From the human T2T-CHM13v2.0 reference genome, Homo sapiens, in assembly GCF_009914755.1 (NCBI RefSeq), contig NC_060927.1: 64,000 nucleotides of DNA. The stretch is one strand, 5' to 3'. Within the stretch, counting starts at the first letter, position 1. Every line of letters begins with the position of its first letter. Shown one piece after another: positions 21,101-27,605 of this stretch. A program made the position numbers and the translations under genes. The notes under the pieces are model-generated. The model made no database searches and was not told where the DNA came from. It was given only the letters and a program-made list of their open reading frames with translations.

Positions 21101-21759
21101 AGTCTTTCAATGTGAAAATGAATTGCCTTGGTTTCAGGGGACAATTTGTACCCATGGTTACTGTACATTGGAAAAGTGCTTGTATACTTAAATAGATGAC
21201 TAAGTCTACTTTTGTACCCTGCAAATCATTTTATATTCAGCACTTCAATTAATTATTGTTTACATCCAATTGAGGGAAACTTATGAGAATTGGAGTATTG
21301 AATATACTTAGGTCGTCTTGTACTTGCAAGACTTTTTCCTGGATTGCTTTGGGAACCCAGATTGATAAATTAAAAAATGTTATTGCATTTGTTTAAATGA
21401 TCATATTTCCATATCACAATCAAGGACTATTATTGTTTTATAAAATATATCTAATTATTAACTACATGATCTAACAAAATGTTCATGCAAGCTTAGATTA
21501 ACTATGCATGCATTTCCAATTCGTTTTAAAAGGTGTATTTGGTTTGGTCTTGTGTTGTTTCTTTATTTTTATTGTTATACTTTAAGTTCTGGGATACATG
21601 TGCAGAATGCACAGGTTTGTTACATAGGTATACATGTGCCATGGTGGATTGCTGCACCCATGAACCCGTCATCAACATTAGGTATTTCTCCTAATGCTAT
21701 CCCTCCCCTTGCTCCCCTTCCTCAACAGGACCTGATATGTGCCCATATGTTCTCATTGT

Positions 21760-25539
<3,780 letters not shown>

Positions 25540-25602
25540 TATGATGCTAACTGGTTATTTTGCCCATTAGTTGATGCAGTTTCTTCATGGCATTGATGGT
25601 CT

Positions 25603-26620
25603 TTACATTTTGGTTTGTTTTTGCAGTGGCTGGTACCAGTTTTTCCTTTCCATATTTAGTGTTTCCTTCAGGAGCTCTTGTAAGGCAGGCCTGGTGGTGA
25701 CAAAATTCCTCAGCATTGTCTGTAAAGGATTTTATTTCTCCTTCACTTATGATGCTTAGTTTGGCGAATATGAAATTCTGGGTTGAAAATTATTTTCCTT
25801 AAGAATGTTGAATATCGGCCCCCACTCTCTTCTTACTTGTAGGGTGTCTGCAGAGAGATCTGCTGTTGGTCTAATGGGCTTCCCTTTGTGGGTAACCCGA
25901 CTTTTCTCTCTGGCTGCCCTTAATATTTTTTCCGTCATTTCAACCTTGGTGAACCTGATGACTATGTGTCTTGGAGTTTCTCTTCTCAAGGAGTATCTTT
26001 GTGGTTTTCTCTGTATTTCCTGAATTTGAATGTTGGCCTGTTTTGCTAGGTTGGGGAAGTTCTTCTGGATAATATCCTAAAGTGTGTTTCCAAACTTGGT
26101 TCCATTCTCCCCATCACTTTCAGGTACACCAATCAAACATAGGTTTGGTCTTTTCACATAGTCCCTTATTTCTTGGAGGCTTTGTTCATTCCTTTTTATT
26201 CTTTTTTACCTAATCTTGTCTTCACACTTTATTTCATTAAGTTGATCTTCAATCTCTGATACCCTTTCTTCTGCTTGATCAATTTGGCTATTGATACTTG
26301 TGTATCCCTCACGAAGGTCTTATGCTGTGTTTTTCAGCTCCATCAGATCATTTATGTTCTTCTCTACATTGGTTATGCTAGTTAGCAATTCCTCTAACCT
26401 TTTATCAAGGTTCTTAGCTTCCTTGCATTGGGTTAGAACATGCTCCTTTAGCTCAGAAAAGTTTGTTATTACCTACCTTCTGAAGCCTACTACTGTCAAT
26501 TCGTCAAACGCATTCTCCATCAGTTTTTTCCCTTGGTGGCAAGGAATTGTGATCCTTTGGAGCAGAAGAGGCTTTCTGTTTTTTGGAATTTTCGGTCTTT
26601 TTTCACTGTTTTTTTCTCAA
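25603..26620 (-). pseudogene. Disrupted L1 ORF1
   Basis: TPRHIVIRFTKVEM..KILRAAREK..GKPIR..ADLS fragment; the start codon position reads TTG. Confidence 0.85.
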
Positions 26621-27605
26621 TTTTGTGGATGTATCTACCTTTGGTCTTTGATGTTGGTGACCTTAGTATGGAGTTTTTGTGGGGTCATCCTTTTTGTTGA
26701 TTTTGATGCTATTGCTTTCTATTGGTTAGTTTTCCTTCTAACAGTCAGGCCCCTCTTCTGCAGGTTTGCTAGAGTTTGCTAAGGCATCCACTCCAGATCC
26801 TCTTTGCCTGGGTATCACCAGCAGAGGCTGTAGAACAGCAAAGATTGCTGCCTGCTCCTTCCTCTGGAAACTTTGTCCCAGAGGGGCACCTGCCAGATGC
26901 CAGCCGGAGCTCTCCTGTATGAGGTGTCTGTCAACCTCTGCTGGGAGGTGTCTCCCTGTCAGGAGACATGGGGTCAGGGACCCACCTGAGAAGGCAGAAT
27001 GTCCCTTAGCAGAGCTTGAGCCGAGCATTGTGCTGGGAGATCCACTGCTCTCTTCAGAGCCAGCAGGCAGGAACATTTAAGTCTGCTGAAGCTGAGCCCA
27101 CAGCCGCCCCTTTCCCCAGGTGCTCTGTCTTTGAGAAATGGGAGTTTTATCAATAAGCCCCTGACTGGGGCTGCCGCCTTTCTTTCAGAGATTCCCTACC
27201 CAGAGAGGAGGAATCTAGAGAGGCAGTCTGGCTACAGAGGCTTTGCCCAGCTCTGGTAGGCTCCGCCCAATCCAAACTTCCAGGTGGCTTTGTTTACACT
27301 GAGCTAGAAATGCAGAAATCACCTGCCTTCTGCATTGTTCTCCCTGGGAGCTGCAGACAGGAGCTGTTCCTATTTGGCCATCTTGCCTGGGAATCCTCAT
27401 GTTGTTTCTTAAAGGAGAAGACCTAGTAATAAAAACAGAAATGCCTTTTAAATATTTTAACAATGATGGTTGATAGAAAAGGTAAGTTATTGAGAAATGT
27501 TTTTATATTTTAATTTTAAAAATCATTATTGTTGTAATCAATATAGAATTGTATATTTTACAGCAAAATGTTAATGCACATCAGTGTTATTAAAACTCAT
27601 TTGTA

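What the first reader, a model, noticed from the sequence alone, without database searches (positions are those of the whole stretch)
27240..27410. Full-span L1PA7-like element looks like a spliced integrant (SpIRE): its 5'UTR deletion sits on splice sites
Seen: the 15-bp TSD fixes the element's 5' end at 27395. On the L1 sense strand the 5'UTR reads ...GGTGATTTCTGCATTTCTAGCTCAG|TGTAAACAAAGCC..., with the junction between 27299 and 27298. The retained first segment is therefore exactly 97 nt. Established: L1 has a splice donor after nt 97 (CTGAG|GTACC), and SpIRE97/622 elements join it to an acceptor just before GTAAACAAAG. From my recall of the L1PA7 consensus, the missing ~0.5-0.6 kb starts at that GT and ends in a polypyrimidine tract, TTTTCCCCTCACAG. 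Inference: this copy was reverse-transcribed from a spliced L1 mRNA, losing most of the internal promoter and the antisense-promoter/ORF0 region while keeping ORF1 and ORF2. It would be a dead-on-arrival integrant. As I recall, SpIREs were catalogued mainly in younger L1PA subfamilies, so an L1PA7-age example would push the phenomenon back in time.
Basis: partly seen in the sequence, partly recalled or inferred. Interest (0 to 1): 0.8.

Follow-up and report, generated by a model that had tools for sequence, protein, structure and literature searches.

The report
Old spliced L1 insertion, uncatalogued acceptor
This decayed human L1 retrotransposon was copied from a spliced L1 RNA, using a splice acceptor that belongs to older L1 families and is absent from the published catalogue of such spliced copies.

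Summary
A minus-strand L1 (21564-27395) with a 15-bp target-site duplication (13/15 identical) joins its first 97 nt directly to TGTAAACAAAG at 27299|27298.

Unspliced relatives in the same genome carry about 572 nt between these points. That stretch begins with GT (58 of 70) and ends with a pyrimidine tract plus CAG (42 of 45).

Two independent pattern searches find the same 8 copies of this junction genome-wide, against 1,669 copies of the unspliced acceptor. Diagnostic positions place the 8 copies in at least three L1 sub-lineages, so splicing was recurrent.

This is not the published SpIRE97/622 junction, which reads CTGAG|CTTTGAAGAG; that site lies 239 nt further downstream here and is retained without an AG.

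In trees, the window copy sits two to three well-supported branches deeper than Larson's labelled L1PA6 copy. It is therefore pre-L1PA6, but the name "L1PA7" could not be verified.

L1PA6-like unspliced copies lack exactly the 19 nt that hold this acceptor. A second old junction class (15 copies) also exists.

Verdict: a real SpIRE-type element of an uncatalogued acceptor class, and an incremental extension of known biology.

The parts
21549..21563 (.). 3' copy of the target-site duplication (AAGAAACAACACAAG on the L1 sense strand)
   Evidence: 13 of 15 identical to 27396-27410, first 11 exact
21564..27395 (-). L1 element, 5,832 bp, full span except for the spliced-out part of the 5'UTR; coding regions decayed
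   Evidence: co-linear over 1.6 kb with other L1 copies; 11 ORFs of 80 aa or more in the span; longest on the minus strand 194 aa
21564..21573 (-). short degenerate A-rich tail (AATAAAAATA) at the L1 3' end
   Evidence: read directly
26619..26621 (-). position of the ORF1 start codon, now ATT
   Evidence: placement by likeness to the ...ACAAAGATGGGGA... stretch in Larson S1 Data sequences; inference
27050..27070 (-). equivalent of the published 97/622 acceptor site, retained and without an AG (CTGCCTGCTGG|CTCTGAAGAG; boundary 27060|27059)
27288..27298 (-). first bases downstream of the junction (TGTAAACAAAG), i.e. the start of 'exon 2'
27299..27395 (-). first 97 nt of the L1 5'UTR ('exon 1'), ending ...GCATTTCTAGCTCAG
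   Evidence: 5 of 6 lineage-A states
27396..27410 (.). 5' copy of the target-site duplication (AAGAAACAACATGAG); with the upstream TTT it gives a bottom-strand TTTCTT/AAA site
   Evidence: endonuclease consensus as quoted in Larson 2018

Best explanation

Proposed sequence of events:
1. A full-length transcript of an old (pre-L1PA6) L1 source element was spliced within its own 5'UTR. The donor was the conserved one after nt 97 (CTGAG|GTACC). The acceptor, about 572 nt downstream, consists of a pyrimidine tract plus CAG directly before TGTAAACAAAG.
2. The spliced RNA was reverse-transcribed and inserted by the normal L1 endonuclease/target-primed route. This left a 15-bp target-site duplication and a short A-rich tail.
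3. The copy then decayed.

Shown here: the junction, the GT..AG borders in unspliced relatives, recurrence in other loci and lineages, and the hallmarks of L1 insertion.

Inferred, not shown: that the spliceosome made the junction, and that the copy arrived with a crippled promoter.
For: 1. Junction and hallmarks: (97-nt first segment; TSD 13/15; bottom-strand site TTTCTT/AAA).

2. The parental sequence contains the intron. Donor GT is present in 58 of 70 anchored relatives, acceptor AG in 42 of 45, and the median length is 572 nt. The unspliced acceptor motif occurs 1,669 times at up to 3 mismatches.

3. The endpoint is one of very few good acceptor candidates. In 22 unspliced relatives, a scan for AG preceded by at least 10 of 12 pyrimidines over about 1.15 kb gives only three recurrent sites: about nt 222, 430 and 670. 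Two of these are found joined to the donor in the genome: 8 copies at about 670 and 15 copies at about 430.

4. Recurrence at unrelated loci. The 8 copies have different flanks. The only flank similarity is 76-86% among four flanks, at least two of which (L005, L091) read as Alu 3' ends (my reading).

5. Several origins. The spliced copies are scattered in the tree (8 label changes for 8 rows; well-supported branches force at least 3). Diagnostic columns computed from unspliced rows only put the window and L003 in lineage A (6/6 and 5/6). L002, L004, L005 and L063 fall in lineage B (5-6 of 6). L091 falls with lineage C (7 of 12, against at most 1 in the others). The separate exon-1 data agree for the window (A, 5/6) and for L004 and L005 (B, 5/6 and 6/6).

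6. The same donor is experimentally established as a splice donor in younger L1s (Larson 2018 main text).
Against: - No RNA evidence for this splice event, and no orthologous loci could be inspected.
- The AU test does not reject a tree holding all 8 spliced copies together (p = 0.208, lnL difference 24.2). A single origin is therefore argued against only by the diagnostic columns and by well-supported branches.
- The lineage groups were read off a tree that included the spliced rows.
- Exon-1 and exon-2 assignments disagree or are mixed for L008, L002 and L003.
- The breakpoint is ambiguous by 2 nt (shared AG).
- The window copy reads CTCAG rather than CTGAG at the end of exon 1.
Confidence: 0.88

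Rival explanations
1. The window copy, and perhaps all 8 copies, descend from one progenitor that already lacked the segment and then amplified. That progenitor could be a SpIRE placed near a host promoter, or a master element with a deletion. On this reading the window element is a secondary copy and not a fresh splicing event.
For: The AU test does not reject monophyly of the 8 copies (p = 0.208). L003 shares lineage-A states with the window (5 of 6). A SpIRE that regained mobility through a host promoter is described in bioRxiv 10.1101/2025.02.02.635956 (passages read).
Against: The spliced copies carry the diagnostic states of at least three different lineages. Their 5' termini are also of different types: the window reads GATTCCCAGGCAAGATGG, L004 and L005 read GGCTGGCAAGATGG, and L091 reads GTTCCAAGATGGCCGAAT. 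In the careful tree L091 sits next to the L1PA6-labelled copy across a 100/100 branch from the other seven. There are 8 spliced copies against 1,669 unspliced, so the subfamily does not natively lack the segment.
Confidence: 0.07
2. A genomic deletion occurred in this copy after a normal full-length insertion.
For: Old L1s often carry internal deletions. A 2-nt microhomology (AG) sits at the two borders. The ortholog test could not be run.
Against: The identical junction is present at 7 other loci with unrelated flanks. The borders fall exactly on a conserved GT and on one of only three strong acceptor-like sites in the 5'UTR.
Confidence: 0.03
3. The L1 reverse transcriptase jumped within the template during target-primed reverse transcription, skipping about 572 nt.
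For: Template switching by L1 ORF2p is known (my own knowledge; no call).
Against: A jump has no reason to recur at GT..AG borders in at least three lineages, or to land on pyrimidine-tract/AG sites in two separate junction classes. Microhomology is only 2 nt.
Confidence: 0.02

Closest known systems
SpIRE97/622 (Larson et al. 2018, PLoS Biol, PMC5860796; main-text passages and S1 Data read)
   Same: It uses the same donor after nt 97 and is an intra-5'UTR splice. It has the L1 insertion hallmarks (TSD, A-tail, endonuclease-type site) and the coding parts are retained. It is a small fraction of full-length copies: about 0.5% here (8 against 1,669), compared with 1.8% overall and 0.1% in L1PA6 in Larson.
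   Different: The acceptor differs. Here it is CAG|TGTAAACAAAG; in 97/622 it is ...GACAG|CTTTGAAGAG, which lies 239 nt further downstream in this element. Lineages A and B show TGCTGG, TGCCAG and TGCCGG at the 622-equivalent site (16, 12 and 4 of 47). That is the pattern of a decayed CpG in an ancestral TGCCGG, so there was no AG. The host lineage is pre-L1PA6, whereas Larson reports none in L1PA7-17.
SpIRE97/853, 97/790 and 97/976 (Larson 2018; Belancio 2006 and 2008 as cited there, not readable here)
   Same: They use the same donor. They show that changes in the 5'UTR shift which acceptor is used, which is the main thesis of Larson 2018 (abstract).
   Different: The acceptors differ. Those classes are catalogued in L1PA1-L1PA6 only. 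97/976 removes the ORF1 start, which the window element keeps.
Processed pseudogenes (retrocopies of spliced cellular mRNAs)
   Same: Intron loss is recorded in DNA because a spliced RNA was reverse-transcribed by the L1 machinery.
   Different: Here the template is L1's own RNA and the 'intron' is part of its internal promoter.

Membership tests
SpIRE (spliced integrated retrotransposed element, Larson 2018) | The internal deletion starts at the L1 5'UTR splice donor (GU right after nt 97) | tested here: met
   The window's first segment is 97 nt. Of 70 anchored unspliced relatives, 58 have GT at that point.
SpIRE (spliced integrated retrotransposed element, Larson 2018) | The deletion ends directly after an AG acceptor in the parental sequence | tested here: met
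   Of 45 relatives, 42 have AG before T(G)TAAACAAAG, with a median of 10 of 12 pyrimidines upstream. It is one of three recurrent strong sites.
SpIRE (spliced integrated retrotransposed element, Larson 2018) | L1 insertion hallmarks: TSD, 3' A-tract, endonuclease-type target | tested here: met
   15-bp TSD, 13/15 identical; tail AATAAAAATA; bottom-strand TTTCTT/AAA. Tested for the window copy only, not for the other 7.
SpIRE (spliced integrated retrotransposed element, Larson 2018) | The spliced RNA is actually produced (RT-PCR), and the spliced 5'UTR has reduced promoter activity | not testable with these tools
   No expression data or assays were available. This is inferred by analogy with Larson 2018.
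SpIRE97/622 class | Junction CTGAG|CTTTGAAGAGAGCAGTGG (nt 97 joined to nt 622 of L1.3) | tested here: not met
   The window joins to TGTAAACAAAG and keeps the 622-equivalent site at 27060|27059.
L1PA7 subfamily (RepeatMasker/Dfam sense) | Diagnostic positions of the subfamily consensus (3' end and ORF2) | not testable with these tools
   No repeat library was available, and Khan et al. 2006 is not held.
L1PA7 subfamily (RepeatMasker/Dfam sense) | Older than L1PA6 on the single L1PA lineage | tested here: met
   In the careful tree the window is separated from Larson's labelled PA6-50 copy (L099) by branches with support 100/100, 100/99 and 98/86. Distances are less clear. CpG-masked half-distances are PA5 0.046, A 0.050, B 0.054, C 0.058. 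The data allow L1PA7 or L1PA8 grade.

The most novel reading that the evidence does not exclude
Splice-acceptor turnover in the L1 5'UTR. Pre-L1PA6 lineages carried two strong internal acceptors (about nt 430 and 670) that bled off transcripts into dead SpIREs. The lineage leading to L1PA6 then lost the 670 acceptor through a 19-nt deletion that removes exactly the pyrimidine tract and the AG. This loss may have been selected as an escape from self-splicing. The later 622 acceptor may then have been created by a CpG-to-CpA change at a site that read TGCCGG in the older lineages. On this reading SpIRE classes are time-stamped markers of a running conflict between L1 promoter evolution and the host spliceosome, reaching back well before the 27 My covered by the published catalogue.
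Probability: 0.3. Interest if true: 0.6.

Novelty: new variant of a known kind. Interest (0 to 1): 0.45.

Why it matters
SpIREs record splicing of L1's own RNA. The published catalogue used junction probes taken from a modern L1 and concluded there were none in L1PA7 and older families.

This element, 7 sister copies and a second class of 15 copies show that older L1 families did form SpIREs, through acceptors that no longer exist in younger L1s. This supports Larson's idea that 5'UTR change reshuffles L1 splicing and extends it further back in time.

It also offers a concrete reason for the earlier negative result. The 622-equivalent site has no AG in lineages A and B (it is unresolved in lineage C), and the older acceptor was deleted in L1PA6-like copies.

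For genome annotation, some 'full-length' old L1s are in fact spliced copies. The locus itself has no shown function.

Tried and rejected
- my probe was mis-set. It covered only exon 1, so it returned ordinary L1 5' ends. The loci were reused as unspliced relatives.
- the AU test for monophyly of the spliced copies was not significant (p = 0.208), so it settles nothing.
- an exact-match pattern for the same junction without the extra T (the form expected in younger L1s) found only the 3 known copies. This is a weak negative because no mismatches were allowed.
- I tried to anchor subfamily names through the LINE-1 ribozyme, reported as abundant in L1PA7, L1PA8 and L1P3. The papers' text gives no sequence.
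- Rfam has no such family. The 11 matches at E up to 1 are SRP/Alu-like and miRNA-like hits in L071, plus two weak bacterial sRNA hits.
- Khan 2006 and Belancio 2006 and 2008 are not held. I cannot exclude that this acceptor is listed there.
Whole-element comparison and TSDs of the other copies were therefore left out.
- distance-based dating separates the groups only weakly, so I rely on tree position for 'pre-L1PA6'.
- Literature searches for an existing description of older-family SpIREs (listings read, plus passages of PMC5860796, PMC5860798, 10.1101/429613 and 10.1101/2025.02.02.635956) found none.

Full report
**What is in the window**

On the minus strand an L1 runs from 27395 to 21564 (5,832 bp).

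- Its 5' end reads (G)GATTCCCAGGCAAGATGGCC.
- Its 3' end is ...AACTTAAAGTATAACAATAAAAATA, followed by AAGAAACAACACAAG.
- The 15 bases 27396-27410 (AAGAAACAACATGAG) and 21549-21563 match at 13 of 15 positions, the first 11 exactly. This is a target-site duplication.
- With the TTT upstream, the bottom strand reads TTTCTT/AAA, close to the TTTT/A endonuclease consensus quoted by Larson et al..
- The coding regions are decayed. There are 11 ORFs of 80 aa or more in the span, and the longest on the L1 strand is 194 aa.
- The position of the ORF1 start codon reads ATT (26619-26621). This placement is my own.

The first segment is 97 nt.

**Is a piece missing, and what are its borders?**

The assembly that holds the window can be searched. 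A 161-nt probe across the junction gave 40 scored matches out of 1,785 first-look candidates. Most matches stop at the junction. Five others run through it.

In the unspliced relatives the two halves lie about 570 nt apart. Over all 76 unspliced loci fetched (duplicates removed), 70 could be anchored on exon 1:

- 58 of the 70 have GT directly after the CTGAG-equivalent.
- The acceptor motif was located in 45, and 42 of those 45 have AG directly before T(G)TAAACAAAG.
- Median intron length is 572 nt (531-583).
- The 12 bases at -15..-4 hold a median of 10 pyrimidines.

The usual parental reading is ...CCAACTGAG|GTACCC...GGTTTTCCCCTCACAG|TGTAAACAAAG. Because both ends share AG, the breakpoint can be slid by 2 nt, and GT..AG is one of the equivalent placements.

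**How many such copies, against how many unspliced?**

- The 26-nt junction pattern with up to 3 mismatches occurs 8 times in the 3.1-Gb assembly. The reversed control occurs 0 times.
- A different pattern (two 11-nt anchors with a free 8-10-nt gap over the donor) returns the same 8 places.
- The places are C3:86951288 (the window), C5:132249443, C7:85496106, C12:58404029, C2:99594230, C2:177856253, C7:110408147 and C12:42212513.
- The unspliced acceptor motif occurs 1,669 times with up to 3 mismatches.

The spliced form is therefore about 0.5%, and the family does not natively lack the segment.

The 8 copies lie in different flanks. The only flank similarity is 76-86% among four flanks, and at least two of these (L005, L091) read as Alu 3' ends by my reading.

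**One origin or several?**

- A tree of about 900 columns downstream of the junction (71 rows) is star-like. The 8 spliced rows are scattered: 8 label changes, a shuffled mean of 7.7, and well-supported branches forcing at least 3 changes.
- The AU test does not reject holding them together (p = 0.208), so the tree alone does not settle the question.
- Diagnostic columns computed from unspliced rows only: the window and L003 carry lineage-A states (6/6 and 5/6). L002, L004, L005 and L063 carry lineage-B states (5-6 of 6). L008 is unclear (3 B, 1 A, 2 other). L091 carries 7 of 12 states special to lineage C, against at most 1 in the others.
- Exon 1 and the 5' terminus were not used for the tree. 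They agree for the window (A, 5/6) and for L004 and L005 (B, 5/6 and 6/6). They are mixed for L002 and L003, and they put L008 with A.
- L091 has the GTTCCAAGATGGCCGAAT type of 5' terminus seen in the L1PA5 and L1PA6 copies.

I conclude that at least three source lineages produced this junction. The caveat is that the groups were read from a tree that contained the spliced rows.

**Do the endpoints look like acceptors?**

I ran a naive scan of 22 unspliced relatives for AG preceded by at least 10 of 12 pyrimidines, with no AG in the 12 bases before it, over about 1.15 kb downstream of the donor. It finds only three recurrent sites:

| Site | Relatives with it (of 22) |
|---|---|
| about nt 222 | 18-19 |
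| about nt 430 | 13 |
| about nt 670 | 19 |

The window's junction uses the 670 site. One fetched locus (L084) joins the same donor to the 430 site, where relatives read TTTTTTTCATACCCCAG|TGG. That junction occurs 15 times genome-wide with up to 3 mismatches, and its control occurs 0 times. Two of the three best candidate acceptors are thus found joined to the donor. This is what splicing predicts, and what random deletion or template jumping does not.

**Comparison with the published catalogue**

Larson et al. 2018 (PMC5860796; passages of the main text, S1 Data searched) screened hg38 by BLAT with 100-nt junction probes taken from L1.3. They report 116 SpIRE97/622 in L1PA1-L1PA6, one of them in L1PA6, and 'none in older (L1PA7-L1PA17, L1PB, and L1MA)' subfamilies.

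In the window the 622-equivalent site is retained 239 nt downstream of the junction and reads ...CTGCTGG|CTCTGAAGAG (27060|27059).

None of the 8 loci is in S1 Data. All entries on chr3 (12), chr2 (12), chr5 (8), chr7 (10) and chr12 (13) lie elsewhere, after allowing for the hg38-to-T2T offsets seen at loci I could match.

Five literature searches found no description of older-family SpIREs. Belancio 2006 and 2008 and Khan 2006 could not be read.

**Age and subfamily**

No repeat library was available, so I anchored on Larson's labelled copies:

- Four L1PA5 copies and one L1PA4 copy were found by coordinates.
- Their single L1PA6 copy, SpIRE(97/622)-50, was found at C5:126603057. Its fetched sequence reads the same as the supplement text over the stretch shown.

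In the careful tree (80 rows) the order is a ladder:

L1PA4/5 copies, then L098, then L100, then the L1PA6 copy, then L091 (spliced), then a 100/100 branch (0.078 + 0.021), then lineage C, then a 100/99 branch, then lineage B, then a 98/86 branch, then lineage A (with the window) together with a seven-row group on its own 100/99 branch.

The window is therefore two to three well-supported steps deeper than L1PA6.

Distances are less decisive:

- End branches are 0.075-0.092 for the three L1PA6-like rows, about 0.11 for lineage A and 0.14 for the window.
- CpG-masked within-group half-distances are 0.046 (PA5), 0.050 (A), 0.054 (B), 0.058 (C) and 0.075 (the seven-row group).
- Scaling the end branches to Larson's '27 MYA' for L1PA6 gives roughly 35 My for lineage A. 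I treat this as a rough figure only.

'L1PA7-like' is thus plausible, L1PA8 grade is equally possible, and 'pre-L1PA6' is the claim I can support.

**Why the classes differ with age**

- At the 622-equivalent site, lineages A and B show TGCTGG (16), TGCCAG (12) and TGCCGG (4) among 47 rows. This is the signature of a decayed CpG in an ancestral TGCCGG, so these sources had no AG there. The inference is mine.
- Two unspliced copies chosen as the best matches to exon 1 of the L1PA6-labelled copy (L101, L102) keep the donor and have TGACAG|CTCTGAAGAG at the 622 site.
- Relative to three old copies, both lack a 19-nt piece that comprises the pyrimidine tract, the CAG and the following T. They read ...GCTTGAGTAG|GTAAACAAAG.
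- Their donor-to-TAAACAAAG distance is 353-356 nt instead of about 572.

The old acceptor is physically gone in the L1PA6-like form, and the younger acceptor lacks its AG in lineages A and B (lineage C shows a mix of states, so its ancestral state is unresolved). Together with probe divergence, this accounts for the negative result in the published screen. Only two L1PA6-like copies were seen, so the timing is provisional.

**Mechanism and consequences**

Shown: the junction, the borders, the recurrence, the insertion hallmarks and the lineage spread.

Inferred:
- The spliceosome removed nt 98 to about 669 from a full-length L1 RNA.
- The spliced RNA was inserted by target-primed reverse transcription.
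- The copy arrived with most of its internal promoter missing. This is by analogy with Larson's assays on 97/622, which found reduced promoter activity and retrotransposition (abstract).
- Whether an antisense promoter or ORF0 equivalent existed in this old 5'UTR was not tested.

**Verdict**

This is a real feature, correctly spotted. It is a SpIRE-type element, but of an acceptor class not in the published catalogue and from a pre-L1PA6 lineage. It extends a known phenomenon and does not establish a new one.

Noticed in passing
L084 (G000 C1:177605305-177605330) and 14 further places listed: A second old junction class. The same donor is joined to TGGYRCCTGGAACC. In unspliced relatives this site is preceded by TTTTTTTCATACCCCAG at about nt 430. 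There are 15 copies at up to 3 mismatches, and the reversed control gives 0.
   Followed up: partly
L056 (G000 C23:76260769-76260864 region): A copy whose exon 1 has the GGCTGGCAAGATGG-type 5' terminus of lineage B joins CTGAG directly to CCTCCTCTAGTGATACCCAGG. This is the 97/853-type acceptor that Larson catalogued only in L1PA4-6.
   Followed up: partly
genome-wide: The 97/622 junction motif (24 nt, up to 3 mismatches) occurs 200 times in this T2T assembly, against 116 SpIRE97/622 reported from hg38 by BLAT. L097 and L098 (C2:8991778 and C2:149155836) are not among Larson's 12 chr2 entries. L098 and L100 group with the L1PA6-labelled copy.
   Followed up: partly
L101 (C5:54627160-54628010), L102 (C4:112641725-112642575): L1PA6-like unspliced 5'UTRs lack a 19-nt piece that is exactly the pyrimidine tract plus CAG(T) of the old acceptor. 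They are also about 215 nt shorter between the donor and TAAACAAAG.
   Followed up: yes
window 26458-26958: The RefSeq 'enhancer' feature given in the hub's annotation lies wholly inside this L1, over the 3' part of the remaining 5'UTR and the start of ORF1.
   Followed up: no
unspliced relatives, about nt 222 of the 5'UTR: A third recurrent acceptor-like site (pyrimidine tract + TAG|CCAAGGGA) is present in 18-19 of 22 relatives. Whether copies spliced to it exist was not searched.
   Followed up: no
L005 and L091 5' flanks: Two of the 8 spliced copies sit directly after the A-rich end of what reads as an Alu 3' end (my reading). This is a typical L1 endonuclease target.
   Followed up: no
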